Source: Bacillus sp. CGMCC 1.16541 (GTDB lineage Bacteria > Bacillota > Bacilli > Bacillales > Bacillaceae_H). From it: a stretch of 40,000 nt of DNA. Positions 6,143-40,000 of the stretch are shown here, one piece after another (positions within the stretch are counted from its first letter, which is position 1; each line of letters begins with the position of its first letter). The notes beneath the pieces were generated by a model that saw only the letters and a list, made by a program, of their open reading frames with translations, had not been told where the DNA came from and did no database searches. Where the stretch lies: the NCBI RefSeq assembly GCF_003184905.1, contig NZ_QFRU01000009.1:32150-72149 (forward strand), given 5' to 3'. The translations under genes and the position numbers were made by a program.

Positions 6143-6450
6143 GCGATGTATTACAGACCGTCAAAAACAAGAAAACAAGAGGATATATTCTTCGCATATT
6201 AAAGCTATCTTACCCGCAAGCTGTTGGAACAAATATTTTAGATGTATGCCTTATTGATGCAGGACTAGGAACGACAAGCGGAAAGCTAATCGGCCACCTT
6301 AAATACTTGGAGGATAAAGGATATGTCCGAGTAAAAGATGTGGAACTATCAAAAGTAGCGAAGTCCATGCATTTAGTCGAGCTGACGTCAGCAGGCATTG
6401 ACATTTTAGAAGGAACAGTTGTTGACCCAGGGGTGAATGTAGATGACTAA
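6139..6450 (+). CDS. putative winged-helix DNA-binding protein
   Basis: 103 aa. GYILRILKLSYPQ...LIGHLKYLEDKGYVRV resembles a wHTH. Start overlaps the upstream stop. Confidence 0.45.
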   Translation: MSDVLQTVKNKKTRGYILRILKLSYPQAVGTNILDVCLIDAGLGTTSGKLIGHLKYLEDKGYVRVKDVELSKVAKSMHLVELTSAGIDILEGTVVDPGVNVDD

Positions 6451-7006
6451 AGCTGGTCGCCCTCGCAAGCATCGGAAACACTTCAAAGTCGAACAATTGA
6501 AATGCAGGGCGATGGTCGATCGGATGTTATCAGACGGTTATACCTACGAGGATATCGTTGCAGCTGTGCAAGCGAAAGGCGAAAGCATCACGGCAGCATC
6601 TCTCTCTCGTTATCACGGTTCTTTTGAAAGAATAGCTGAACGGATTACAAAAACACGAGAGCAGATGAAAGTGCTTGTAGAAGCCGTGAGAGACAAGCCT
6701 AACACAGACCTTGCTCAAGTAGCTAACGAGCTCATGATGCAAAGTTTAATTGAGCGCATTTCTACTGCTCAAGATGAGTTCAGCGAAATCCCTCTGGATA
6801 AAGTCGGTAGGTTAGTCGCCAGCCTTGAAAGGTCGGCCACTGCTCGCGAAAAACTCAAGTATGAGTATGACAAAGGTATTACAGCTGCCAGTGAAGCGTT
6901 TAAGCAACGAATGCAGGAAGAATTGAAGAATCATCCTGACTTGTTGTTAAGAATGCTCGAAGTCGCTGAAGAGGTACAAACACAGCTATTAGAAGAGAAG
7001 AAGTAA
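6443..7006 (+). CDS. terminase small subunit, Mu gp27-like (DUF3486)
   Basis: N-terminus GRPRK..., then an HTH-like stretch (YEDIVAAVQAKGESITAASLSRYHGSF) and a long helical tail. Lies upstream of the large terminase. Confidence 0.6.
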   Translation: MTKAGRPRKHRKHFKVEQLKCRAMVDRMLSDGYTYEDIVAAVQAKGESITAASLSRYHGSFERIAERITKTREQMKVLVEAVRDKPNTDLAQVANELMMQSLIERISTAQDEFSEIPLDKVGRLVASLERSATAREKLKYEYDKGITAASEAFKQRMQEELKNHPDLLLRMLEVAEEVQTQLLEEKK

Positions 7007-7042: not shown

Positions 7043-7138
7043 ATGAGTGAACAAACGAATACATGCGCTGTTATTGGATTGGCAGAAGTCGATATCGAGC
7101 AATTAGTAAATGAGTTCGGCTACGATGCTGATCGATAA
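7043..7138 (+). CDS. small hypothetical protein (31 aa, MSEQTNTCAVIGLAEVDIEQLVNEFGYDADR)
   Basis: Strong RBS gaaggaggtga 6 nt upstream. Translated by hand. Confidence 0.4.
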   Translation: MSEQTNTCAVIGLAEVDIEQLVNEFGYDADR

Positions 7139-7171
7139 TACGAAGCAGGAGTCGAATTCGATGGTGCTGTC

Positions 7172-7375
7172 ATGCTTGAACTATTCAAAGAGGGCGAAAT
7201 CGTCAAACGGAAATCCGAGGATCACGGCTATCGCTTAGATGTAATAGACGATTACGAAAACTCTATCCCTGCTGCCGCAATGATTGATTCCAATGGGAAC
7301 ACAATCGGGATGAGTGGCTTTACAGTGGAACAGTTGCTTGCTACTGATTGGCAGATTATGCGGATTGGGAATTAA
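7172..7375 (+). CDS. hypothetical phage protein
   Basis: 67-aa ORF with no strong RBS. Confidence 0.4.
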   Translation: MLELFKEGEIVKRKSEDHGYRLDVIDDYENSIPAAAMIDSNGNTIGMSGFTVEQLLATDWQIMRIGN

Positions 7376-7395
7376 CTGCTGCTTGTGCTTTTTGG

Positions 7396-7423
7396 TTGTT
7401 TAACATGTATTTCTCCCTAATAT
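7396..7423 (+). promoter_or_regulatory. candidate sigma-A-type promoter (TTGTTT - 16 nt - TAATAT)
   Basis: Hexamers read at 7396-7401 and 7418-7423. It would start transcription around 7430, at the first hairpin of the non-coding locus. Confidence 0.35.
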
Positions 7424-7427
7424 AGCT

Positions 7428-7450
7428 GGTCTCGTATGGTTGGCGAGACC
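7428..7450 (+). other. hairpin ggtctcg / cgagacc (9-nt loop) followed by gccttttat
   Basis: Read directly from the sequence. Could be the terminator of the upstream gene or the 5' element of module 1. Confidence 0.5.
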
Positions 7451-7459
7451 GCCTTTTAT

Positions 7460-7503
7460 GCGAGGAAGGTATTAGATCGGTTCGACTCCGATCCCTCGCT
7501 CCA
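7460..7503 (+). ncRNA. tRNA-like minihelix 1: acceptor stem + T arm + encoded CCA, no D or anticodon arm
   Basis: Layout: gcgagga | aggtattag | atcgg ttcgact ccgat | ccctcgc | t | cca. The acceptor stem has 6 Watson-Crick pairs plus an A:C mismatch. The T stem is 5 bp with a canonical T-loop. Confidence 0.6.
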
Positions 7504-7967
7504 AATTATCACAAAAGCCGACATCGACAGCAAACGGTGAACTTCACCAAAAATTTACAAGAAGTCGAACGGCAAAGATTCATTGTTCCTTGACAATGTT
7601 CGCACGTCGAATAAGGGCGTTTTATCTCGAACCGACCGAGAGCGACACGGATCGCGTGGCATGGCTGATGCTGCAAGATGCCGTCATATTGGGCCGAAAA
7701 ATGTAAGGACTACTCGCGGGAGCTCTACTTCCTTCTCCTTCTCGGTAAAATGGCTTTTTTCTACAGCTGAAACAAATGAAGTAGCTGCATTATTTGAGAT
7801 AAGGGAGTATCTATCGGATGCCACCGATGCGAGGCTTGCCACGATCCGCATATGCTATATGCGAGGAGCGAGTATGGGAGACGAACACCTGAAGTCCTGG
7901 GAGAACTTGTTTAAATAATGTTTTTAAATAGATGCCTCCTCCCTCTTTTTTTGGGAGGAGATTTTAC
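7504..7967 (+). ncRNA. candidate large structured non-coding RNA between the two minihelices
   Basis: No ORF with an RBS. The only tracked ORF (7583..7918) starts at TTG without an RBS and has an odd R/S/T-rich composition. G+C is locally elevated: hand counts give 57% for 7621-7680 and 50% for 7681-7740. Several hairpins are present, plus an 11-bp long-range complementarity. Confidence 0.35.
7936..7960 (+). other. hairpin ctcctccc / gggaggag (9-nt U-rich loop) followed by attttac
   Basis: Read directly from the sequence; 8 perfect base pairs. Could be a terminator-like element or the 5' element of module 2. Confidence 0.5.
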
Positions 7968-8011
7968 ACGGATTAAGGTTTATGGCGGTTCGATTCCGTC
8001 AATCTGTGCCA
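7968..8011 (+). ncRNA. tRNA-like minihelix 2: acceptor stem + T arm + encoded CCA, with G3:U70
   Basis: Layout: acggatt | aaggtttat | ggcgg ttcgatt ccgtc | aatctgt | g | cca. The acceptor stem is 7 bp, including a G:T wobble at the third pair. Confidence 0.6.
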
Positions 8012-8040
8012 AATACAATCATAAGGAGGTGGGTTGTGTT

Positions 8041-9690
8041 ATGAGAGAATCTTCTCTTCTATCCGAGCTGGTCGGCAGTAAGAATGAGCAAGTCGTAGAA
8101 GAATGGGAGTACGCTTTATGGGACAAATACGCAATTGATCATCCTGACTTAATCGAACTTAAAAGCAAACGCCCTTTTACTGGATCGACTGGATTAAGAA
8201 AACTTCTTGGCGAAAGAAGCATGGAATATTTTGCAAGAGCGTATTTCCCAGAGTACATCCCTACCGCCCCACCTTCCTTTCACCAGGAATGGTTTATTGA
8301 CCTGAAGAAAGTCGTCGAGAAAAATGGCGGTAGCTCAATGGTAAGAGCTGCTCCACGTGGACATGCAAAGACAACTATCTGGGACTTTGTATTTCCTCTC
8401 TGGGTGACGGTGTACAAGAAAAAGTTTTATATCCTCATTATTTCGGATGCTTATGACCAAGCCCAAGGCTTTATTAGTAACATAAAAGACGAGATTGAGG
8501 ACAACGAAAGAGTTGTTTCAGATTTCGGGAAATTAAAAGGAGACCGTTGGCAAGAGGGTAGTATTGTTTGCTCTAATGGTGTAAAAATCGAAGCCCTCGG
8601 TGCAGGAATGAAAGTCCGTGGCCGTAAAAATAAGAGCCGCCGACCTGACCTTATCATCCTCGATGACGTTGAGAATGATGAAAATGCAGCAACAACAGAA
8701 CAACGAAAAAAAATAAAAAACTGGTATAAAAAAGCCGTTAGGCACGCTGGTGCAAGATACACCGATTTCGTTTTCGTTGGAACGGTTATCCATGAAGACT
8801 CCCTTCTAGGCGAACTGCTAAAGAGTCCTGGTTACGATAGTAAAAGATATCAGGCTGTTGTTTCGTTTGCTGAAAGAGAGGACTTGTGGGCTGAATGGAA
8901 AGATATTTTCACCGATATGGACAACCAGAACAGAGAGACAGATGCCCGCGCTTTTTTTGAAAAGAATTCAAAAGAAATGCTTAAAGGAGCAAAGGTTCTG
9001 TGGGAAGAAAACAACCCTAAGTTTCCAGATGGATATTATAGCTTGATGGTAACTCGTGTAACAGATGGCGAATCGGCGTTTGCATCAGAGTTGCAAAATG
9101 ACCCAAGAAGCTCCGAAGAACAATTCTTTAAACCTAAGTATTATCAATACGGCGAACTACCTCCACTCTCTCAGTTAGAACTTGTAATGTCTGTCGATCC
9201 ATCGATGGGACAATCGGACAAATCCGACTTCTCGGCTATTATCGCCCTGGCTACTCATCGCAGGACGGGTCAAATGTATGTGCTTGAAGCAGACATTAAA
9301 CGCCGTAAACCTGACTTGATTATTGAGGCGATGTTCGACATTGCTATTAAATTTATGCGGCAAGGGCTAAAACCGAAAGTGATCGGAATAGAAGATGTTC
9401 AATTCCAAGCTTTCTTTAAACAAGAGGTTGAAAAACGAGCGAGAGCAAGAAGATTGCATTTGAATATCCGACCGATTCGCAACACTGTTTCGAAGGATAT
9501 GCGTATCGAATCGATGGAGCCTAGTGTAAACAACGGTTACATACTCCTCCACCCTTCTCAAACGCTGCTTATCGAGCAATTAGAAGGATATCCGAGAGCG
9601 AAGAAAGACGGACCAGATGCTTTGGAAATGACAACACGCCTAGCGACTGGTGCTGGCATGGGTGTTGGCTCTTTCGATAGAGTCTTTTAA
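8041..9690 (+). CDS. terL: terminase large subunit
   Basis: ATG after ataaggaggtg. Walker-A-like APRGHAKTT, Walker-B LIILDD, and a C-terminal nuclease-like region. Confidence 0.85.
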   Translation: MRESSLLSELVGSKNEQVVEEWEYALWDKYAIDHPDLIELKSKRPFTGSTGLRKLLGERSMEYFARAYFPEYIPTAPPSFHQEWFIDLKKVVEKNGGSSMVRAAPRGHAKTTIWDFVFPLWVTVYKKKFYILIISDAYDQAQGFISNIKDEIEDNERVVSDFGKLKGDRWQEGSIVCSNGVKIEALGAGMKVRGRKNKSRRPDLIILDDVENDENAATTEQRKKIKNWYKKAVRHAGARYTDFVFVGTVIHEDSLLGELLKSPGYDSKRYQAVVSFAEREDLWAEWKDIFTDMDNQNRETDARAFFEKNSKEMLKGAKVLWEENNPKFPDGYYSLMVTRVTDGESAFASELQNDPRSSEEQFFKPKYYQYGELPPLSQLELVMSVDPSMGQSDKSDFSAIIALATHRRTGQMYVLEADIKRRKPDLIIEAMFDIAIKFMRQGLKPKVIGIEDVQFQAFFKQEVEKRARARRLHLNIRPIRNTVSKDMRIESMEPSVNNGYILLHPSQTLLIEQLEGYPRAKKDGPDALEMTTRLATGAGMGVGSFDRVF

Positions 9691-27414: not shown

Positions 27415-27733
27415 CCCTACCATTTGGCGTGATAGAGTTAGTGATCCAGAGGGCGACATCACGCATCCAGGTACAAAATTCACAGCAAGACGAGGCAATA
27501 AACTTGAGGATGCATCTAAGTTAGCTCACGACCGATTGAATAATGTTGTCATTTTTATCGATGAGCTGACAAGGCAACAAAAGAATTTACGCCTGGAATT
27601 CCTATTGCTAAAAGCCTCTGTCACATCAGGGCTTACAAGTAATATTTTTGTTGAAAACTTTGAGACAACTGACGATATTGTCTTAATAAATGGATTCCAC
27701 GACCCAGCAGATCAAAAATTATACATCAGATAA
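27374..27733 (+). CDS. hypothetical tail-region protein
   Basis: TTG start 9 nt after gaggagg; overlaps the upstream gene end. Confidence 0.4.
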   Translation: MEIKELLDQIFNYDPTIWRDRVSDPEGDITHPGTKFTARRGNKLEDASKLAHDRLNNVVIFIDELTRQQKNLRLEFLLLKASVTSGLTSNIFVENFETTDDIVLINGFHDPADQKLYIR

Positions 27734-27746
27734 GAAGGGAAATGTT

Positions 27747-28088
27747 TTGAACAAAGCAACAGATTTAATTATTTACAAGAAGGCTGAAACGCTGCTTAAT
27801 GAGGTTTATCCAATTTTACGAGCCTTTCCTAAATCAGAGAAATTTGCGATATGCCAAGAAATCAAACAAGCTTTTTATGCCCTGCTGCGAAATATTATGC
27901 TAGCGAATAACATCAAAGCAAGAAAACGAATATATCAAGAAGAAGCTGATGCTTATATAAAGCTCCTTGTTGTCTTGTTTTCTGTGGCTAAAAAGCAACG
28001 ATACATCACTCAGAAAAGGCATACAATGATTCAATTGAAAATTGAAGAATTAGGAAAGATACTCGGCGGCTGGATGAAATCATCATAA
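27747..28088 (+). CDS. avd: DGR accessory variability determinant (Avd, four-helix-bundle protein)
   Basis: About 113 aa, basic and helical, ending ...IEELGKILGGWMKSS like known Avd proteins. Lies immediately upstream of TR. TTG start after gaaggga (an ATG at 27690 is also possible). Confidence 0.75.
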   Translation: MNKATDLIIYKKAETLLNEVYPILRAFPKSEKFAICQEIKQAFYALLRNIMLANNIKARKRIYQEEADAYIKLLVVLFSVAKKQRYITQKRHTMIQLKIEELGKILGGWMKSS

Positions 28089-28110
28089 CCTATTAGGGTT
28101 GCAGCTGTTT

Positions 28111-28206
28111 GGCGCTAACCGTGCTCTTCGCGGGAACAATTCGGCGCGGAACTGGAACAACGATGATGCTTCGAACCGCAACCCGAACTACGGCTGGCGT
28201 CCCGCC
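28111..28206 (+). repeat. DGR template repeat (TR)
   Basis: 96 nt aligned without gaps to 29961-30056. Contains 21 adenines, including 8 AAC and 1 AAT codons in the VR reading frame. Confidence 0.9.
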
Positions 28207-28342
28207 TTGTTAGTAATATTTAGATCGATGCGTTTACGGATTCATCGACACGGCCTCTAACTTCAAGGGAGCTGCAATCCTTCGTTCGTAGAACGTAAAC
28301 ACATGAATAGTCATTCTCGCCCAGCTGAAAGGAGCGGCCGAA
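28207..28342 (+). other. DGR spacer (Sp-like) RNA region between TR and RT
   Basis: Non-coding with local hairpins (tcgatg/catcga at 28225-28248; cgttc gta gaacg at ~28283-28295). Also contains agctgcaatcc (28270-28280), which is complementary to gggttgcagct (28096-28106) upstream of TR. Confidence 0.55.
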
Positions 28343-29410
28343 ATGGCGAAAAAATATGATCATTTATACGAGAAGATTGTCGATTTTGACAATCTTCTTT
28401 TTGCATATAAACAAACACTAAAAGGAGATAGGAAATTCCGTAAGGATGCTATTCTATTTTCTATGCTGGAAGATGCTAACCTAGTAAGACTTTGGAAAGA
28501 ATTAAAAACTGGTAATTATAGAGTTGGTGAGTATATCAGATTCAAAGTTTACGAGCCGAAAGAACGCATGGTCAGCGCACCTAGGATCAAGGACAAGATT
28601 GTCCAATTCGCAACGCATACAGTCATAAAAGATGTTTACTCTAATGTGTTCGTATCTGACAGTTACGCTTGTCTTGAGGAAAGAGGAACTCATAAAGCGG
28701 TTGATAAAGTTCAGAAATATTTAAGAGATTGCGAGAGACTTTATGGTTACGGTTGGATTGTAAAAGTCGATGTGTCAAAGTTCTTTTATTCTATCGACCG
28801 AACGATTCTAAAAAGAATTCTTAGAAAAAAGATTGCGTGCCGTAAAACAATTTGGCTTCTTGATCAAATTATTGATAGCTCTCCAGAAGGAGAACGCGGA
28901 ATCCCTCTTGGGAACGTCACTAGCCAAGATTTTGCCAATATCTATTTAAATGAGTTGGATCAATATGTAAAACGTCATCTTGGCATCAAGTGGTATGTGC
29001 GATATATGGACGATTGCGTAGCTATCGTGCAGACAAAAGAAGAAGCGCAGAGATTAAAGAAGCAAATGTGTCGATTCCTTCGTGTTCATTTGAATCTGAT
29101 GGAAAATCCAAAGAAATCGCAAATATTCCCTCTTACTCAAGGGGTTAATGCTTATGGCTTTAAAATATGGACGACTCATAAGAAAGTCCGTGATCAGTCA
29201 AAAAGAGCGATGAAACGCCGCATCAAGGCGATGGATAGAAAGGTGAAAGGAGGCTCTTTAACCGTGAGTGAGGTCAAACAAGCTGTTGATAGCTGGATGG
29301 GCCACGCTCGACATAGCAACTCATATAATTTAGCTAAAAAAATCTTTGCTCCGTATCCATACATTAAAGTTGAAGGAGATGAGTATTTTGGCAAACGGAG
29401 ATTTAATTAA
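28343..29410 (+). CDS. DGR reverse transcriptase
   Basis: RBS gaaaggag. Contains IPLGNVTSQDFANIYLNELD (the SQ...N signature typical of DGR RTs) and the catalytic YVRYMDDCV. Confidence 0.9.
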   Translation: MAKKYDHLYEKIVDFDNLLFAYKQTLKGDRKFRKDAILFSMLEDANLVRLWKELKTGNYRVGEYIRFKVYEPKERMVSAPRIKDKIVQFATHTVIKDVYSNVFVSDSYACLEERGTHKAVDKVQKYLRDCERLYGYGWIVKVDVSKFFYSIDRTILKRILRKKIACRKTIWLLDQIIDSSPEGERGIPLGNVTSQDFANIYLNELDQYVKRHLGIKWYVRYMDDCVAIVQTKEEAQRLKKQMCRFLRVHLNLMENPKKSQIFPLTQGVNAYGFKIWTTHKKVRDQSKRAMKRRIKAMDRKVKGGSLTVSEVKQAVDSWMGHARHSNSYNLAKKIFAPYPYIKVEGDEYFGKRRFN

Positions 29411-34870: not shown

Positions 34871-34935
34871 AAAATACTGTTTCTTAATCAATATGCACAC
34901 TTTTATGCATGACAAGAAACAGTATTTTCTCATTT
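34871..34935. terminator. bidirectional terminator between convergent genes
   Basis: 15-bp perfect inverted repeat aaaatactgtttctt / aagaaacagtatttt, with T-runs on both strands. Confidence 0.7.
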
Positions 34936-34968
34936 TGCGTTACATTTTTTATCATTTTGCGCGACGAG

Positions 34969-35754
34969 CTACAACAACCAAATAGAAATTGAGTAGATAA
35001 GAATGGCGATACTACCAAAGATGATACAAAAAGCAAGAATGTCTTCATTTCCTCGTCCAATTTCAATCGGGTTGAAAAGTGAAAATAAGGACAGATTACG
35101 CATCCACTCAAACTTCTCACTCATCTTTCCAATAAGGTCCAATGCATAGAAAATGACGGTTAAAACGGCAGGTATACTCAACGCTTTTTTTTCGTCATTC
35201 ATTAAAGAAGAAAAGAAAAACGAATAGCTTGAGATTACAAAGAACAAAAAGAATGCTGCTACATTCATTTGGACAAACGCTATTACGTCGAAATCAGATG
35301 TTTCAATTAAATAAGTTCCACCTAAAATGCCAGCTAAAGTGGTCACACCTAGAATCGTAACTAACCCTGTTACACCAACCATTGCTTGTGTAATGGCAAT
35401 TTTTACCCGGGAATTCGGTGTAGCTAGTAAATAAGCCATCGAGCCATTATCAACGAGTTTAGCTAACGATCCTGTTGCAGTGGTGATGCAGTAGATACTT
35501 AAAATCACAAGTAAAAGCAATCCGTAATACTCTCCGGCAAGAAAGTCACTCAGTGAAGATAATCCTCCTTCAATTCCAAATGCCTTTAAGAAATTTTCAG
35601 GCATTGAAGCAATAATGTCATTTAATCCTTTTACATTCGAAACAGAAGGGTAAATCATCACAATTAATAGAAGATAAAAAGTAGAACCAATTGTATAACT
35701 ACTAATTGATTTTCCGTGCCCTTTTAACATCGTAAAAAATAAAGCGCGACTCAT
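34969..35754 (-). CDS. ABC-2 type transporter permease
   Basis: 261 aa with multiple hydrophobic spans. Translationally coupled to the upstream ATPase. Confidence 0.7.
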   Translation of the reverse strand: MSRALFFTMLKGHGKSISSYTIGSTFYLLLIVMIYPSVSNVKGLNDIIASMPENFLKAFGIEGGLSSLSDFLAGEYYGLLLLVILSIYCITTATGSLAKLVDNGSMAYLLATPNSRVKIAITQAMVGVTGLVTILGVTTLAGILGGTYLIETSDFDVIAFVQMNVAAFFLFFVISSYSFFFSSLMNDEKKALSIPAVLTVIFYALDLIGKMSEKFEWMRNLSLFSLFNPIEIGRGNEDILAFCIIFGSIAILIYSISIWLL

Positions 35755-36635
35755 CGTAATCCTCCTCTGTCATAGTAGTTCATAAACACATCTTCTAGAC
35801 TTTGGTGTTCAACATCTAAATGTAAAACATGAAAAGCTGAAAGCACTCGCACAAGCTCGTCATAATTTCCTTGAATGATAACTCGAGCTTTCGTTCCTTC
35901 ATAGCTTTCGACTAGAAGAGAAGAGGCAAGAAGGTTTTGTAACTCTTCTGCAGATGAGAGAGTCACAAGAAACTTTTGTGTTTGCTTTGCACGTAACTCA
36001 TGCACGGTTTCGATAGCTACAATATGTCCGTCTTTAATGATGGCTACACGATCACACGCTTTTTCAACTTCTGCAAAGATATGAGAAGACATAAAAATGG
36101 TGACGCCGCGTTTTTTTTCTTCAAGCACTAAATCAATAAACGTTTGTTGCATGAGAGGATCTAACCCTGAAGTCGGTTCATCAAGAATAAGAACGTCAGG
36201 TCGATGCATAAATGCAGCGACAATTCCTACTTTTTGTTTCATTCCTTTTGACATCTTACGAATGGGTGTGTGTACGTCGAATTGAAAACGATCAATTAAT
36301 TCATCGCGATACGTCGTATCTTGTATGTTTCTCATTCCACCCATTAACTTTAAAAAGTCTAGTCCTGTCATGTTATCTAAAAATGAAATCTCACCAGGTA
36401 AATAACCAACCCGTTCTTGAATCAATGCGGATTGCTTCCATGTATCTAATCCGTCAATCAATGCCGTGCCACTATCGCCTTTTATAAACCCCATTAAATG
36501 ACGAATAGTTGTAGATTTCCCTGCACCATTTGGTCCTAAAAACCCAAATACTTCTCCAGTTTGAACCGATAAAGTAACGTCAAAGATTCCTTTTCCATTG
36601 GGAAATGTTTTTGTTAAATTTGTGATTTCAATCAT
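35751..36635 (-). CDS. ABC transporter ATP-binding protein
   Basis: Walker A GPNGAGKST, signature-like MSKGMKQK, Walker B VLILDEPTSGLD. Confidence 0.9.
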   Translation of the reverse strand: MIEITNLTKTFPNGKGIFDVTLSVQTGEVFGFLGPNGAGKSTTIRHLMGFIKGDSGTALIDGLDTWKQSALIQERVGYLPGEISFLDNMTGLDFLKLMGGMRNIQDTTYRDELIDRFQFDVHTPIRKMSKGMKQKVGIVAAFMHRPDVLILDEPTSGLDPLMQQTFIDLVLEEKKRGVTIFMSSHIFAEVEKACDRVAIIKDGHIVAIETVHELRAKQTQKFLVTLSSAEELQNLLASSLLVESYEGTKARVIIQGNYDELVRVLSAFHVLHLDVEHQSLEDVFMNYYDRGGLR

Positions 36636-36668
36636 AAAATCTCTCCTTTAAAAGAGTTGAGAGTAAAG

Positions 36669-36780
36669 TTTTGAACTATTATATAAAAGATATTTCAAAA
36701 TTATTGTATGCTCATTTTTATGAAAAAGCAATGTATTTTTGAACTATTTGTGTTTAAAAAGTTCATTATTTTGATACAAT
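36669..36780. promoter_or_regulatory. divergent promoter/operator region of the TetR gene and ABC operon
   Basis: The 12-mer ttttgaactatt occurs twice (36669-36680, 36737-36748). tgaact...agttca forms an inverted repeat (36741-36765). An extended -10 tgatacaat lies at 36772-36780. Confidence 0.4.
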
Positions 36781-36796
36781 GAGAATGGTGATGTGA

Positions 36797-37390
36797 ATGA
36801 ATGGATTTGAAAAACGCAAAAATCAGAAAAAAGCAGATATTCGCGCTGCAGCGTATAGGTTATTTAATGAATATGGTCCCAAACAAGTGAACATGGCTCA
36901 AATTGCAAAAGAAGCTAGCGTGTCTCAAGTAACCATCTATAATCATTTTCAAAGTAAAGAACAATTATTGCGAGAAGTAATCATGGAGTATTTAGAGAAG
37001 CAATTAAGCATTTATACAACATTGATGCAAAGTGATGAGCCATTTCAAACGAAAATTGAGCATATTATTTTTGAAAAAATACATGCTAAAAATCCAATGA
37101 AGCGAGAGTTTTTTCAGTCAGCAATTGAAGGGGATGAAGAACTTCAAGCATACTTTCAACAGTATTATGAACAAAAAGCACTTCCACTTCTTGCTGCATT
37201 CATTATGGATGGTAAACAAAAAGGAGCCATTTCTAATGAAATATCAGTGGAATCGATTCTTTTTTTTATTAATGCGTTAAAACAGCAAATGGATCAATTA
37301 CCTGTCGATTCTCCGTTTTTTAATCAACCTGAAAAGGTAAAAGAAATGTTACACTTGTTCTTTTACGGCATCATGGGTAAAAACACGTAA
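36797..37390 (+). CDS. TetR/AcrR-family transcriptional regulator
   Basis: N-terminal HTH: IRAAAYRLFNEYGPKQVNMAQIAKEASVSQVTIYNHFQSKEQLL. Confidence 0.85.
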   Translation: MNGFEKRKNQKKADIRAAAYRLFNEYGPKQVNMAQIAKEASVSQVTIYNHFQSKEQLLREVIMEYLEKQLSIYTTLMQSDEPFQTKIEHIIFEKIHAKNPMKREFFQSAIEGDEELQAYFQQYYEQKALPLLAAFIMDGKQKGAISNEISVESILFFINALKQQMDQLPVDSPFFNQPEKVKEMLHLFFYGIMGKNT

Positions 37391-37522
37391 TATGAATACA
37401 ACTTAAGTGTTTAATGTTCGTCATTTAGTTAGATGCTATCACTTGACACACAATGAAATGATGATAAGATATTGATAGTGATAAACAAAGTTCGAACAAT
37501 GTAATAACAATTAAAAGGGGTT

Positions 37523-37556
37523 AGCTCATACTCGTTGAGTGGGTATGAGCTTTTTG
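37523..37556 (+). terminator. terminator-like hairpin in the symporter leader / downstream of the TetR gene
   Basis: 9-bp stem agctcatac / gtatgagct followed by ttttt. Confidence 0.5.
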
Positions 37557-37629
37557 TATACATAAGCGGTGACTGGGAGAAAGGGTTTTCACTCAATGTT
37601 CGGAATTTAAACAAAAAGGAGAGTGAACC

Positions 37630-38856
37630 GTGTTGAAAAAGCTATCATTGCTTACGCAAGTGTTAATGGCGTTTACATTAGCCCTTGTGCTTGGGTTAAT
37701 TTTCGGAGATAAAATGGCTGTCGTTCAACCGCTTGGTGATTTGTTTTTACGGTTAATTAAGTTTATTATGGCACCACTTATCTTAACAACACTTATTGTA
37801 GGAATTACAAGTTTACAAGACAGTAAACAACTGTTTAGCATGGGTGGGCGTACAATTGCTTACTACATGATTACAACACTCGTCGCAGTTGGAATTGGCA
37901 TTTTCTATGGAGTTGTGTTGTCTCCAGGTAGTGGTGTGAAAGTAGATGAGCCACAAGCGAGTGAAGCAGCTCAAGCTGAAGCACCGACGTTTGTTGAAAC
38001 CATCCTTAACATCATTCCTGAAAACCCATTTGCAGCACTAATGGACGGCAATATTTTGCAAATCATTTTCTTAGCCATTGCGATTGGATTAGGGATCTTG
38101 TTTGTTGGAGAACAAGCCAAGCCTGTAAAACAACTATTTGAATCGTTTTCGACTGTGATGTTTAAGATTACAAGTGGCGTCATGTTTATTGCGCCAATCG
38201 GTATTTTTGGTATGGTAGCTCCAATTATCGGAGAATATGGTGTAGCTGTTTTAATGCCATTAATCAAAGTGATTATAGCAGTTGCACTTGGGTGTGTAAC
38301 ACAAGTGATTATTGCATATTCATTTGCTGTAAAAGTATTTGGAAAGATGAGCCCAATTACATTCTTAAAAGGTATTGCTCCGGCAGGAATTGTTGCATTC
38401 AGTACAGCTAGTAGCGGTGCCACACTGCCTATCTCATTAAAGAACACACAAGAAAACTTAGGTGTATCGAAAAAAACAGCAAGCTTTGTTTTACCGCTTG
38501 GTGCGACGATGAACATGGATGGAAGTGCGATCTATCAAGGGGTAGCAGCCTTGTTTATCGCTCAATTTTACGGAATTGATTTAGGTATGGCAGAAATGGC
38601 GATGATTATGTTCACGGCAACAGTGGCTTCAGTAGGAACAGCAGGAGTACCTGGTGCGGGGATGATCATGTTGACTATGGTGCTTGCAGCTGTGAATTTA
38701 CCAGTAGAAGGAATTGCGCTTATTGCAGCCATCGACCGTATTCTTGATATGTTTAGAACATCAGTTAATATTGTAGGAGACGCAGCAGCGGCTGTATTTG
38801 TTGATTCATTTGAGAAAAAACGTACAGAAAAAGAAGAACACACATTGAGTGTATAA
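37630..38856 (+). CDS. dicarboxylate/amino acid:cation symporter (DAACS family)
   Basis: 408 aa, GTG after aaggagag. Polytopic, with the typical SSGATLP and NMDGSAIYQ motifs. Confidence 0.85.
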   Translation: MLKKLSLLTQVLMAFTLALVLGLIFGDKMAVVQPLGDLFLRLIKFIMAPLILTTLIVGITSLQDSKQLFSMGGRTIAYYMITTLVAVGIGIFYGVVLSPGSGVKVDEPQASEAAQAEAPTFVETILNIIPENPFAALMDGNILQIIFLAIAIGLGILFVGEQAKPVKQLFESFSTVMFKITSGVMFIAPIGIFGMVAPIIGEYGVAVLMPLIKVIIAVALGCVTQVIIAYSFAVKVFGKMSPITFLKGIAPAGIVAFSTASSGATLPISLKNTQENLGVSKKTASFVLPLGATMNMDGSAIYQGVAALFIAQFYGIDLGMAEMAMIMFTATVASVGTAGVPGAGMIMLTMVLAAVNLPVEGIALIAAIDRILDMFRTSVNIVGDAAAAVFVDSFEKKRTEKEEHTLSV

Positions 38857-38857
38857 A

Positions 38858-38898
38858 AAGTGCGAGACTTCTAACGATTGGAAGTCTCGCACTTTTTG
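38858..38898 (+). terminator. Rho-independent terminator
   Basis: 14-bp stem aagtgcgagacttc / gaagtctcgcactt followed by tttt. Confidence 0.85.
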
Positions 38899-39037
38899 AT
38901 TAATAAAGAAGAAAACGCTTTTTTGTGGACTTTAAGTGTCAATCGTTTATAATGAATGACAGTGTAAAGAGTGTCATAACAGTAAATAGCGAACAAGATG
39001 GGCATACTACAAGAAGCAAATATGAAGGAGTTTTTTT

Positions 39038-39997
39038 ATGGAAAAAATTAAAATGTTTTCACATAATGATTTAGACGGTGTAAGTCCTGCGATTTTAGGA
39101 ATGCTTGCATTTGAAGAGAAAGAATTTGATTACGATACAGTAGGCATTGGTCGTATTGATGAAACGGTTACACACTTTTTAGATGAACATAATGACAAAA
39201 ATACAGAGATTTACATAACAGATATTAGTGTTAGTGATGAAGTAGCACATCGGTTAAATGAGCTTGTTGAACAAGGACAAAAAGTCACACTCATCGATCA
39301 TCACATTTCAGCATTGCCTCTTTCTGAAAAATATGAGTGGGTTCATGTGACACCAGAAGACTCTTCGGGTACAAAAACAGCTGCCACTTCGTTATTTTAT
39401 GAGTATTTAATTCAACAAAACCTTTTAACGAGAACAAAAGCGTTAGATGAATACGTTGAACTTGTTCGTTTATTTGATACATGGGATTGGTTCAGAGAAA
39501 AAAACGAAAAAGCAAAAAGGTTGAATCATCTTTATTATTTAATCAATCATGAAGAATTTAAAGACATGGTCTATGAAAAATTAAAAGCTTCTTATGAAGA
39601 AGATGAGTTGTTCACATTTAATGAGCGTCATGAAATTTTACTAGAAGCTGAAGAAAAGAAAATTGAAAAATACATTCAAGATAAACAAAAGCAAATGATA
39701 ACAGCTTCGGTTACCATTGCTGAGGAAGAATATGTAGCTGGAATTGTCTTTGCAGAAAATTATCAATCAGAATTAGGGAACGCTCTTTGTTTAGAGCACG
39801 AAGACATTGACTTTTCTGTACTAATTGATATGGGGCGTCAAAAAATAGGATTCCGAGCAGTAAAAGACCAGATTAACTTAGCTGACATTGCCGGCCATTT
39901 AGGTGGAGGTGGACATCCAAAAGCATCTGGCTGTTCACTCACACATGAAACATTTAAGTTATTTGTCGTTTCTCAATTGTTCAACGAAAAAAAATAA
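39038..39997 (+). CDS. nrnB: DHH/DHHA1 phosphoesterase, NrnB-like oligoribonuclease
   Basis: Contains SHNDLDGV, LIDHH and GGGGHPKASGC. The overall layout recalls B. subtilis NrnB (YngD), from memory. Confidence 0.7.
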   Translation: MEKIKMFSHNDLDGVSPAILGMLAFEEKEFDYDTVGIGRIDETVTHFLDEHNDKNTEIYITDISVSDEVAHRLNELVEQGQKVTLIDHHISALPLSEKYEWVHVTPEDSSGTKTAATSLFYEYLIQQNLLTRTKALDEYVELVRLFDTWDWFREKNEKAKRLNHLYYLINHEEFKDMVYEKLKASYEEDELFTFNERHEILLEAEEKKIEKYIQDKQKQMITASVTIAEEEYVAGIVFAENYQSELGNALCLEHEDIDFSVLIDMGRQKIGFRAVKDQINLADIAGHLGGGGHPKASGCSLTHETFKLFVVSQLFNEKK

Positions 39998-40000
39998 ATC

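What the first reader, a model, noticed from the sequence alone, without database searches (positions are those of the whole stretch)
7428..8011. Two hairpin + tRNA-like minihelix-CCA modules bracket a non-coding locus between the terminase genes
**Layout.** The same composite module occurs twice, 508 nt apart (7460 versus 7968). Each module has these parts in order:
- a 7-8 bp hairpin with a 9-nt loop (7428-7450; 7936-7960)
- a U-rich spacer (gccttttat / attttac)
- a 44-nt element made of a 7-nt acceptor strand, a 9-nt linker containing GG (aggtattag / aaggtttat), a 5-bp stem with a 7-nt canonical T-loop (ttcgact / ttcgatt), the complementary 7-nt acceptor strand, one discriminator base, and a genomically encoded CCA

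**Evidence for selection on structure.** The two copies differ almost completely in stem sequence yet keep their pairing. The T-loop and linker are conserved. That pattern suggests selection on structure rather than chance.

**What is missing.** There is no D arm or anticodon arm, so these are not decoding tRNAs.

**Interpretation.** The top half of a tRNA is what RNase P, CCA-adding enzyme, EF-Tu and several aaRSs recognise. I do not know a described phage element with this architecture. Possible roles, all speculative:
- processing punctuation that releases the central RNA and the terL mRNA
- decoys for acceptor-end-targeting toxins or defences
- chargeable minihelices
Basis: seen in the sequence. 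Interest (0 to 1): 0.85.

Follow-up and report, generated by a model that had tools for sequence, protein, structure and literature searches.

The report
tRNA-like minihelices bracket a phage RNA
Between the two terminase genes of a Mu-like Bacillus prophage lies a conserved, intricately folded non-coding RNA whose ends are marked by miniature tRNA look-alikes, most likely cut sites for the cell's tRNA-processing enzyme RNase P, an arrangement not described before in phages.

Summary
Hairpin plus 44-nt acceptor/T-arm minihelix modules sit at 7428-7503 and 7936-8011.

They are not chance. Eleven copies across seven related Mu-like Bacillales prophage lineages keep the 12-bp acceptor/T stack: 96% of cells paired, 9 of 12 pairs with compensatory changes. 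The canonical T-loop and a CC tail are also kept.

The encoded CCA is not conserved: only the first C is invariant, the second is kept in 9 of 11 copies, and A76 varies.

The bracketed 'non-coding locus' is a new, Rfam-unmatched structured RNA. Its core is 7583-7871, with 51 supported pairs, 22 of them with compensatory changes. It is conserved as well as or better than terL.

Module 2 occurs only in some lineages. Elsewhere the homologue of hairpin 2 sequesters the terL Shine-Dalgarno.

The element is accessory. Four related phages lack it, and it sits beside a weak Tad2-like gene.

Best reading (inferred, untested): the minihelices act like plant-mitochondrial t-elements or mascRNA. RNase P cuts at their 5' ends, the upstream hairpins protect the new 3' ends, and the CC tail blocks RNase Z.

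Decoy, charging or purely architectural roles remain open.

The parts
7044..7375 (+). Small accessory gene immediately upstream. It is weakly Tad2-like/DUF2829 and is interrupted in this window by an in-frame TAA at 7136-7138.
   Evidence: The translation aligns with L002 P0121. Homologues hit phrog_1048 (6e-17) and PF11195 Tad2-like at 22-23.8 bits, below the cut-off of 25.
7428..7450 (+). Hairpin 1: 7 bp with a 9-nt loop. Proposed protector of the 3' end of the upstream fragment.
   Evidence: A 7-bp hairpin of unrelated sequence sits at the same place in 7 lineages, with 49 of 49 cells paired (strands chosen by eye). The U-tract after it is not conserved.
7451..7459 (+). Single-stranded spacer, the proposed RNase P leader. 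It is 4-9 nt long in the homologues that carry a minihelix (0 nt in the L005 variant).
7460..7503 (+). Minihelix 1: acceptor strand, 9-nt GG linker, T arm with T-loop TTCGACT, acceptor strand, then T-CCA.
   Evidence: R1 scores 58.5 bits. Covariation. Fold.
7504..7582 (+). Variable spacer domain. It is present in the window, L266 and L002, and nearly absent in L001, L004, L006 and L267.
   Evidence: Alignments.
7583..7871 (+). Conserved structured RNA core. It is closed by P1 (7583-7589 UUGUUCC with 7865-7871 GGAGCGA). It contains a three-way junction, several hairpins and a loop-loop pairing (7663-7666 with 7765-7768).
   Evidence: 51 pairs, 98.4% of cells paired, 22 pairs with changes on both sides; no shuffle of 500 reaches the percentage paired, the compensatory counts or the covariation score. 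Helix search. No Rfam match. Window versus L002 identity is 78.9%, against 66.9% for terL.
7872..7935 (+). Variable 3' tail of the RNA. It ends in the conserved AAUAGA(U/C) motif just before hairpin 2. It contains a 14-codon ORF (7874-7918) that is not conserved.
7936..7960 (+). Hairpin 2 (CUCCUCCC/GGGAGGAG, 8 bp). It is the homologue of the hairpin that sequesters the terL Shine-Dalgarno in lineages without module 2.
   Evidence: L004, L006 and L267 sequences.
7961..7967 (+). Single-stranded spacer before minihelix 2.
7968..8011 (+). Minihelix 2: acceptor strand, linker AAGGUUUAU, T arm with T-loop TTCGATT, acceptor strand, then G-CCA.
   Evidence: R1 scores 57.6 bits. Covariation. The 3' 28 nt are 26/28 identical to the 3' end of T4-like phage tRNA-Thr.
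8023..8043 (+). Shine-Dalgarno AAGGAGGTG (8023-8031) and the terL start codon (8041-8043).

Best explanation
**What it is.** The two modules are tRNA 'top-half' mimics built into the late transcript of a Mu-like prophage. They flank, and form part of, a conserved structured RNA of about 500 nt that lies just upstream of terL.

**Proposed mechanism (inferred, not shown).**
1. Host RNase P recognises each minihelix as it would a pre-tRNA. The determinants are the 12-bp acceptor/T-stem stack, the T-loop elbow, a single-stranded leader of 4-9 nt and a 3' CC that pairs with the L15 GG of RNase P RNA.
2. RNase P cuts at 7459/7460 and at 7967/7968 (or 7966/7967).
3. The hairpin just upstream of each cut becomes the 3'-terminal stem-loop of the released upstream RNA and shields it from 3' exonucleases.
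4. The minihelix stays on the downstream RNA as a base-paired 5' cap. Its CC tail makes it a poor RNase Z substrate.

**Predicted products in this window.**
- The gp27/small-ORF mRNA.
- A stable RNA of about 508 nt (7460-7967).
- A terL mRNA that begins with minihelix 2.

**Lineages without module 2.** The RNA stays attached to terL as its leader and ends in a hairpin that sequesters the Shine-Dalgarno.

**What the core RNA does** is unknown. It is an accessory element, not a packaging necessity.
For: **Shown here**
- The anatomy is exact and folds as predicted.
- Eleven copies in seven lineages keep the 7+5 bp stack: 96% paired, 9 of 12 pairs compensatory.
- The T-loop TTCRANY and the last two T-stem pairs (both G-C) are invariant.
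- The first C of the tail is invariant and the second is kept in 9 of 11 copies. The third position is A, U, C or G.
- A hairpin of unrelated sequence precedes minihelix 1 in every lineage. The spacer is 4-9 nt in the lineages that carry a minihelix (0 nt in the L005 variant).
- The base before the acceptor stem is U in 7 of 11 copies (read).
- No sigma-70-like promoter lies on the + strand between gp27 and terL, so co-transcription is likely.
- The minihelix motif is specific to this locus. R1 finds nothing else in the window or in the upstream regions of 169 other terL loci.
- The non-coding stretch is conserved as well as or better than its neighbours. Window versus L002: hp1+mh1 81.8% and core 78.9%, against gp27 75.4% and terL 66.9%.

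**From the literature**
- RNase P measures the acceptor/T-stem stack from the elbow (PMC4919913).
- The L15 GG pairs with C74 and C75 in both type A and type B enzymes. RNase Z is blocked by CCA (PMC1874595).
- tRNA-like elements direct RNase P or RNase Z cleavage of non-tRNA transcripts. Examples are plant mitochondrial t-elements (found with the same GGTTCRANYCC motif; PMC1920247), MALAT1-mascRNA and phage P1/P7 C4 RNA (PMC4919922).
Against: - There are no transcript or cleavage data for any member.
- Module 2 is missing in four lineages, so 'bracketing' is not the conserved state.
- L005 has a plain 7-bp stem-loop instead of minihelix 1, which would be a poor RNase P substrate.
- Two L001 copies read CCAA directly after the stem, so the N-CC rule has exceptions.
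- Conservation of the CC and the T-loop could simply reflect tRNA ancestry, or another tRNA-binding partner such as CCA-adding enzyme, an aaRS or a toxin.
- Only seven or eight lineages are known, and some helix registers were chosen by eye.
Confidence: 0.5

Rival explanations
1. The minihelices are the functional part. After release they act as acceptor-end mimics. They could be decoys or sponges for defence or toxin enzymes that attack the tRNA acceptor/CCA end. They could also be substrates for CCA-adding enzyme or an aminoacyl-tRNA synthetase. On this reading the RNA is an anti-defence element.
For: - The element is accessory and patchy: present in seven or eight lineages and absent from L003, L007, L008 and L470.
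- It sits in an insertion hot spot next to a weak Tad2-like (Thoeris anti-defence) gene.
- The CC tail could be completed to CCA by CCA-adding enzyme.
- G3:U70 occurs in window m2, L266 m2 and L002 m1 (pair 3).
Against: - A76 is encoded in only 6 of 11 copies.
- G3:U70 is not conserved: GC 4, AU 3, GU 3, CG 1.
- The Tad2-like match is below Pfam's cut-off, and the gene is absent from L005, L006 and L267, which still carry the RNA.
- In this window the Tad2-like gene is broken while the RNA is intact.
- This role does not explain the large conserved core or the hairpins.
- No example of such a decoy was found in the literature.
Confidence: 0.2
2. The minihelices are architectural domains of the large RNA and are not cleaved. 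Their T-loop elbow would serve as a docking surface for tertiary or quaternary contacts, or for a protein. The whole RNA would be a cis-acting leader that controls terL translation.
For: - In L004, L006 and L267 the RNA runs straight into a hairpin that pairs ACUCC with the terL GGAG.
- The conserved GGAGCGA block has two mutually exclusive partners, which looks like a switch: long-range P1 and local P7, whose pair 262:300 covaries as C-G, U-A and G-U.
- A covarying loop-loop pairing shows that the RNA uses long-range contacts (helix 7).
Against: - Close relatives express terL without any such leader (L003, L007, L470).
- In L005 the RNA is separated from terL by about 300 nt.
- In the window lineage a second minihelix and a new Shine-Dalgarno separate the RNA from terL.
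- No partner motif for an elbow, such as interdigitated T-loops, was identified.
Confidence: 0.17
3. The elements are decaying remnants of phage tRNA genes or tRNA-gene attachment sites and have no present function.
For: The 3' 28 nt of minihelix 2 are 26/28 identical to the 3' end of T4-like phage tRNA-Thr. This points to tRNA ancestry.
Against: - Both acceptor strands are present and covary across lineages.
- The stretch is conserved as well as or better than terL.
- The two copies are not repeats of each other.
- Mu-like phages transpose and do not integrate at tRNA genes. The family assignment rests on Mor, GemA, Gam and Gp27.
- The site is internal to the prophage.
Confidence: 0.03
4. The hairpins are intrinsic terminators, and the tRNA-like appearance downstream is coincidental.
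For: Hairpin 1 followed by CCTTTTAT is called terminator-like by the consensus scan.
Against: - The U-tract is absent in L001, L004 and L006.
- Hairpin 2 is not called by the scan.
- The minihelix is far beyond chance.
- Termination here would silence terL, because no + strand promoter follows before terL.
Confidence: 0.03

Closest known systems
Plant mitochondrial t-elements (tRNA-like processing signals; Forner et al. 2007, PMC1920247)
   Same: - Both are non-decoding tRNA-like folds built around the GGTTCRANYCC T-arm motif and an acceptor-like stem.
- Both are embedded in longer transcripts next to mRNA ends.
- Stem-loops accompany them.
- They are proposed, and partly shown, to direct RNase P or RNase Z cuts that create mRNA 5' and 3' ends.
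   Different: - t-elements are organellar, not phage or bacterial.
- They are described as non-canonical cloverleaves, not a strict acceptor/T minihelix with an 8-11-nt linker.
- They do not flank a conserved ornate RNA.
- Cleavage is shown for some t-elements and for none here.
MALAT1/MEN-beta mascRNA-type 3'-end processing (PMC4919922)
   Same: A protective RNA structure lies immediately upstream of a tRNA-like element. RNase P cleavage then creates a stable 3' end on a long non-coding RNA.
   Different: - It is a eukaryotic nuclear system.
- The protector is a triple helix, not a simple hairpin.
- The tRNA-like part is a full cloverleaf that RNase Z also releases.
- Here the CC tail argues against RNase Z release.
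C4 antisense RNA of phages P1/P7 (RNase P-processed phage regulatory RNA; cited in PMC4919922)
   Same: A phage-encoded non-tRNA RNA whose mature 5' end is made by host RNase P.
   Different: - C4 is a ~77-nt antisense repressor in enterobacterial phages (size from my own knowledge).
- It has no canonical T arm.
- The Rfam-wide search (C4 is in Rfam as RF01695, to my knowledge) gave no hit here.
tRNA-like domain of tmRNA
   Same: An acceptor stem and T arm with no anticodon arm. A short unpaired stretch replaces the D stem.
   Different: - In tmRNA the two acceptor strands lie at the two ends of a ~360-nt RNA. Here each minihelix is self-contained.
- No conserved tag reading frame is present.
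- ARAGORN finds no tmRNA.
- Rfam gives only an 8-bit match to the T arm.
ROOL and GOLLD ornate phage RNAs (PMC12286853, PMC5737381)
   Same: - Large, elaborately folded, protein-free RNAs of unknown function, encoded in prophages.
- They are associated with tRNAs: near tRNA islands, and with tRNAs inside GOLLD linkers.
- They use loop-loop contacts.
   Different: - No sequence or structure match to either Rfam model.
- This RNA is smaller: a 290-nt core, or 240 nt in the short forms.
- It is flanked by minihelices, not by real tRNAs.
- It is fixed between terS and terL of Mu-like Bacillales phages.
- Oligomerisation has not been tested.
Canonical phage tRNA genes
   Same: T arm, acceptor stem and an (N)CC tail. 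The T arm of m2 resembles that of tRNA-Thr.
   Different: No D arm and no anticodon arm, so no decoding. The elements are not detected by ARAGORN.

Membership tests
Canonical tRNA | Cloverleaf with a D arm and an anticodon arm bearing an anticodon | tested here: not met
   Only 8-11 nt link the 5' acceptor strand to the T stem. ARAGORN finds 0 genes in the window and in 7 homologous loci.
Canonical tRNA | 7-bp acceptor stem stacked on a 5-bp T stem, with a 7-nt T-loop TTCRANY closed by G53-C61 | tested here: met
   12 pairs, 96% of cells paired, T-loop invariant.
tRNA-like RNase P/Z processing signal (t-element / mascRNA type) | A non-decoding tRNA-like fold embedded in a longer transcript | tested here: met
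   No + strand promoter lies between gp27 and terL. Co-transcription itself is inferred.
tRNA-like RNase P/Z processing signal (t-element / mascRNA type) | Transcript ends that coincide with the ends of the element (cleavage by RNase P and/or RNase Z) | not testable with these tools
   No transcript data are available. This needs RACE, end-mapping RNA-seq or in vitro cleavage.
tRNA-like RNase P/Z processing signal (t-element / mascRNA type) | RNase P determinants: acceptor/T stack of tRNA length, an elbow, a single-stranded leader and a 3' CC | tested here: met
   - 12-bp stack and T-loop.
- Leader of 4-9 nt.
- First tail C in 11 of 11 copies and second C in 9 of 11.
- The determinants are taken from PMC4919913 and PMC1874595.
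tmRNA | A tRNA-like domain formed by the 5' and 3' ends of one RNA, enclosing a tag-peptide reading frame and pseudoknots | tested here: not met
   - Each minihelix is closed locally.
- No conserved reading frame.
- ARAGORN finds no tmRNA.
- Rfam tmRNA families score only 8.3 bits on the T arm.
Intrinsic (rho-independent) terminator | A GC-rich hairpin directly followed by a U-tract, conserved among homologues | tested here: not met
   The hairpin is conserved but the U-tract is not. It is UCUACCAU in L001, UUACGA in L004 and CUUAC in L006. Only hairpin 1 of the window is called.
tRNA-gene attachment-site remnant | Only the 3' part of a tRNA, identical to a host tRNA, at the edge of an integrated element | tested here: not met
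   - The 5' acceptor strand is present and covaries.
- The location is internal to the prophage.
- The phage is Mu-like.
- Identity to host tRNAs could not be checked because the host genome was not available.
ROOL / GOLLD / other Rfam large RNAs (for the central RNA) | A match to the family covariance model | tested here: not met
   cmscan against 4227 families found nothing in the element. The window region was searched at E<=10 and seven homologous loci at E<=1.
Structured non-coding RNA (generic, for the central RNA) | Helices kept through compensatory changes, no conserved ORF, and conservation at least that of neighbouring genes | tested here: met
   - 51 pairs, 98.4% paired, 22 compensatory; no shuffle of 500 reaches these values or the covariation score; slid controls 36-46%.
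- ORFs are not conserved.
- Identity figures.

The most novel reading that the evidence does not exclude
This is a new class of ornate phage RNA. The conserved closed core is ~290 nt, and the full RNA is ~500 nt in this window. tRNA-maturation enzymes would excise it from the late operon through built-in tRNA-like minihelices. It would then act in trans, for example as an anti-defence RNA in an accessory hot spot shared with a Tad2-like gene, or as a self-assembling particle held together by its covarying loop-loop contact, as in ROOL and GOLLD. It would be the first bacterial or phage counterpart of the organellar t-element / mascRNA principle.
Probability: 0.3. Interest if true: 0.9.

Novelty: new variant of a known kind. 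Interest (0 to 1): 0.78.

Why it matters
**A processing mechanism new to phages.** tRNA-like elements that recruit RNase P to shape non-tRNA transcripts are known from plant mitochondria, mammalian lncRNAs and one enterobacterial phage RNA. A strict acceptor/T-arm minihelix paired with a protective hairpin has not been described in phages. If cleavage is confirmed, phages can define RNA ends and uncouple the stability of neighbouring cistrons without a nuclease of their own.

**A new structured RNA.** The bracketed RNA is a new, strongly constrained family with pseudoknot-like contacts, sitting in an accessory hot spot next to a possible anti-defence gene. That makes it a candidate for the small group of large phage RNAs (ROOL, GOLLD) whose functions are still unknown. 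It offers a compact and genetically tractable example, with lysogens in culturable Bacillus, Alkalihalobacillus and Brevibacillus strains.

**Practical use.** The minihelix could serve as a minimal, portable RNase P tag for engineering RNA ends in Firmicutes.

Tried and rejected
**Searches for more members that found none**
- BLASTN of 7300-8100 against 50,697 phage records: no match.
- TerL as a single query against genome and viral collections: nothing.
- DNA-pattern scans for core motifs in viral contigs and metagenome contigs: about 300 loci, all chance or true-tRNA hits by nhmmer. The one exception was L065, the A. alcalophilus prophage again.
- TerL-profile scans of genome and viral collections gave 160 distant Mu-like terL loci. 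Apart from L074, the already known A. alcalophilus locus (= L001), none carries the RNA by nhmmer. R1 found no minihelix in the 158 of these loci searched (L074 and L154 were not), apart from two weak minus-strand hits (E 0.09 and 4.8) taken as chance.

**Identities considered and dropped**
- tmRNA or two-piece tmRNA: each minihelix is self-closed and there is no conserved tag frame.
- The TTGACA inside the conserved TTCTTTGACAA block as a -35 box: rejected, because no -10 follows in any lineage and the block pairs with GGAGCGA.
- The 111-aa ORF 7583-7918 and the 14-codon ORF 7874-7918: not conserved.
- G3:U70 as an alanine identity element: present in 3 of 11 copies only.
- The GG in the linker as a D-loop G18G19 analogue: uncertain. 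It may equally be the variable-loop AGGU of an ancestral tRNA (compare the tRNA-Arg false positive).

**Technical limits**
- MAFFT mis-registers the variable linker. Pair counts were therefore made on a linker-free alignment and on the CM-fitted alignment.
- A profile search of the small ORF family against PDB sequences gave nothing significant.
Full report
**1. Context.** The window is a Mu-like prophage.
- Pfam and PHROGs identify Gam, GemA, Mor, a Gp27-type small terminase (6443-7006), a large terminase (8041-9690) and an SPP1-type portal.
- The TerL protein is identical to one annotated in Bacillus sp. CGMCC 1.16541.
- Between gp27 and terL lies about 1 kb. It holds a small gene (7044-7375) and a gene-free stretch that contains the finding.

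- Hairpin 7428-7450, spacer, then the 44-nt element 7460-7503.
- Hairpin 7936-7960, spacer, then the 44-nt element 7968-8011.
- Each 76-nt module folds exactly this way as its MFE and centroid structure, at -30.8 and -29.7 kcal/mol with z-scores of -2.8 and -4.5.
- Two refinements apply. Module 1 is better drawn as 6+6 bp, because pair 7:66 is A.C. Module 2 has an alternative register in which C7967 pairs with G8008.
- Module 2's 44 nt folded alone give a different MFE structure (z -1.1), so its minihelix fold depends on the 76-nt context and the covariation.
- ARAGORN finds no tRNA or tmRNA.
- Rfam finds nothing in 7300-8100 even at E<=10, apart from an 8-bit match to the bare T arm.
- The T-arm motif GGTTCRANNCC occurs only at these two places in the 40 kb, against 0.33 expected.

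**3. Homologous loci.** BLASTN against phage records found nothing, so relatives were reached through TerL and the contigs encoding its closest homologues.

The same gene-free element lies between gp27 (plus or minus the small gene) and terL in these loci:

| Locus | Source |
|---|---|
| L266 | close relative, from a sequencing run |
| L002 | metagenome |
| L001 | Alkalihalobacillus alcalophilus |
| L004, L348, L349 | Brevibacillus borstelensis and relatives |
| L006, L267 | shorter form |
| L005 | reduced form, Paenibacillus naphthalenovorans |

- It is absent from L003, L007, L008 and L470, whose TerL proteins are 60-69% identical to the window's.
- The element is therefore accessory and patchy.

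**4. The minihelix is under selection for structure.** Eleven copies were collected: seven of module 1 and four of module 2.
- On a linker-free alignment, the 12 pairs of the acceptor/T stack are formed in 96.3% of cells. Nine pairs show changes on both sides. No shuffle of 500 reaches the percentage paired, the compensatory-change counts or the covariation score, and sliding the partner strand drops pairing to 31-54%.
- A covariance model built from five copies recovers all eleven copies and nothing else in 575 kb. That search covered the whole window on both strands and 89 other loci.
- The model-fitted alignment gives the same counts.
- Invariant features are the T-loop TTCRANY, the two T-stem G-C pairs next to it, a GG in the 8-11-nt linker (read), and the first C after the stem.
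- The encoded CCA is not conserved. Tails read TCCA, TCCA, TCCT, CCAA, ACCC, ACCC and ACCC for module 1, and GCCA, GCCA, ACCG and CCAA for module 2.
- The 3' 28 nt of module 2 are 26/28 identical to the 3' end of tRNA-Thr of T4-like phages. This suggests descent from a tRNA by loss of the D and anticodon arms.
- It is not an integration scar, because the 5' acceptor strand is present and covaries.

**5. The hairpins.**
- A 7-bp or longer hairpin of unrelated sequence precedes minihelix 1 in all seven or eight lineages. In the lineages that carry a minihelix a 4-9-nt spacer separates them; L005 has none. A by-eye strand table gives 49 of 49 cells paired.
- The U-tract that makes hairpin 1 look like a terminator in the window is missing in L001, L004 and L006. 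Termination is therefore not the conserved role.
- Hairpin 2 is preceded by a conserved AAUAGA(U/C) motif. It aligns with a hairpin that pairs ACUCC with the terL GGAG in L004, L006 and L267, just upstream of the start codon.
- In the window, L266, L002 and L001, minihelix 2 and a fresh Shine-Dalgarno lie between that hairpin and terL.

**6. The bracketed RNA is a new structured RNA.**
- It is non-coding. The window's 111-aa ORF is frameshifted in L266 and full of stops in L002, and gene callers found nothing in any homologue.
- It is conserved at least as well as its essential neighbours. Window versus L002: core 78.9% and hairpin 1 plus minihelix 1 81.8%, against gp27 75.4% and terL 66.9%. 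L004 versus L348: RNA 97.3%, against 93.5-96.8% for the neighbouring genes.
- A search for column pairs that stay complementary in all sequences picked out the following:
  - a closing helix between the two most conserved blocks (UUGUUCC 7583-7589 with GGAGCGA 7865-7871)
  - a three-way junction
  - several hairpins
  - a loop-loop pairing (GGCU.AGCU in the window and L002, against AGCC.GGCU in L001 and L004)
- Counted on a plain MAFFT alignment of five sequences, 51 pairs in ten helices are formed in 98.4% of cells. Twenty-two pairs show changes on both sides. No shuffle of 500 reaches those values or the covariation score; the count of further pair types does not stand out (34/500). Slid controls give 36-46%.
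- The GGAGCGA block can alternatively pair locally with CUUGC (P7, one covarying pair). Which pairing holds, or whether both do, is unresolved.
- No Rfam family matches this RNA in the window or in seven homologous loci.
- Pattern scans of viral and metagenome collections and profile searches of 160 distant terL loci found no further members.

**7. How it most likely works (inference).**
- Every feature that is conserved in the minihelix is a known RNase P determinant:
  - the acceptor/T stack measured from the elbow (PMC4919913)
  - a short single-stranded leader
  - C74 and C75, which pair with the L15 GG in both type A and type B enzymes (PMC1874595)
- The one feature that is not conserved, A76, is not needed for that contact.
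- The same CC makes a poor RNase Z substrate (PMC1874595). The minihelix should therefore stay on the downstream RNA as a paired 5' end, while the hairpin ends the upstream fragment.
- With no + strand promoter between gp27 and terL, the late transcript would be cut into three pieces:
  - a gp27/small-ORF mRNA
  - an RNA of about 508 nt (7460-7967)
  - a terL mRNA
- This is the logic of plant mitochondrial t-elements, which were found with the very same T-arm motif and are accompanied by stem-loops (PMC1920247). It is also the logic of MALAT1-mascRNA and of RNase P processing of phage C4 RNA (PMC4919922).
- None of it has been tested. I put it at about 0.5.

**8. Rivals.**
- *Decoy or charging role.* This is favoured by the accessory distribution and by the neighbouring gene. 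That gene's homologues hit phrog_1048 and, below Pfam's cut-off, the Thoeris anti-defence Tad2-like domain. It is weakened by the variable A76, by G3:U70 in only 3 of 11 copies, by the independence of the RNA and the gene, and by the large core that it leaves unexplained.
- *Purely architectural or cis-regulatory role.* This is favoured by the Shine-Dalgarno-sequestering hairpin of the short forms and by the P1/P7 alternative. It is weakened by relatives that need no such leader and by L005, where the RNA is about 300 nt from terL.
- *Remnant or terminator readings.* The covariation and the missing U-tracts contradict them.

**9. Novelty and limits.**
- tRNA-like processing signals are a known kind. 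This strict minihelix-plus-hairpin module in a phage, flanking an unmatched ornate RNA, is a new variant. Three targeted literature searches found no description.
- ROOL and GOLLD show that prophages carry large tRNA-associated RNAs of unknown function (PMC12286853). This RNA may be a smaller analogue.
- Limits:
  - only seven or eight lineages are known
  - some helix registers were set by eye
  - there are no expression data
  - the host tRNA set could not be compared

Noticed in passing
window 27690-29410: A diversity-generating retroelement cassette: bAvd-like accessory protein (27690-28088), RT-9 RNA (RF03080, 76.9 bits, 28223-28312) and a reverse transcriptase (28343-29410). The variable target gene was not looked for.
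   Followed up: partly
window 7044-7375 (stop at 7136-7138): The small gene before the RNA has an in-frame TAA where the full-length 112-aa L002 homologue reads through. NCBI annotates only the 67-aa C-terminal part. Homologues are weakly Tad2-like/DUF2829 (PF11195, 22-23.8 bits against a cut-off of 25) and match phrog_1048.
   Followed up: partly
L399 1620-1669 (also L427, L441, L419, L420): An unrelated group of gut-phage contigs carries an intergenic acceptor/T-arm minihelix: GGCAAGA, a 15-nt linker, GGCGG-UUCGAUU-CCGCC, CCUUGCU, then GCUA. It scores 25-30 bits with R1, and ARAGORN finds no tRNA there. It lies about 30 nt upstream of a Shine-Dalgarno and ATG. A second T-arm-containing element preceded by a strong hairpin sits at L399 2383-2460. 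Minihelices may be more widespread in phages.
   Followed up: partly
window 7583-7589 / 7865-7871 versus ~7840-7844 / 7868-7872: The invariant GGAGCGA block can pair either with the distant UUGUUCC (P1) or with the nearby CUUGC (P7, whose outer pair covaries as C-G, U-A and G-U). The two pairings exclude each other, so this could be a conformational switch.
   Followed up: partly
window 7663-7666 and 7765-7768: A loop-loop complementarity covaries: GGCU.AGCU in the window and L002, AGCC.GGCU in L001 and L004. In the window the apical loop holds the palindrome CAGCUG. The contact could be within one molecule or between molecules.
   Followed up: partly
window 7968-8011 versus T4-like phage tRNA-Thr: The T arm and 3' acceptor strand of minihelix 2 are 26/28 identical to the 3' end of tRNA-Thr(UGU) of RB3/T4-like phages. 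This hints that the minihelix arose from a tRNA by loss of the D and anticodon arms.
   Followed up: no
L005 3440-3700: In the Paenibacillus naphthalenovorans relative, minihelix 1 is replaced by a plain 7-bp stem (GCUUCCG/CGGAAGC) with a 13-nt loop and the tail AACCCC. The core is shortened, and about 300 nt with a small ORF and GTTATAACGC repeats separate it from terL.
   Followed up: no
window 7874-7918: A 14-codon ORF with a good Shine-Dalgarno, formed by the GGAGCGA block itself (AGGAG-N6-ATG). It is kept in L266, shortened in L002 and absent in L001 and L004, so it is probably not a gene.
   Followed up: yes
window ~34900-40000: The right end of the prophage is probably near 34.9 kb. ABC-transporter genes lie on the minus strand (34969-36635) and a sodium:dicarboxylate symporter gene follows (37630-38856). 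These look like host genes.
   Followed up: no
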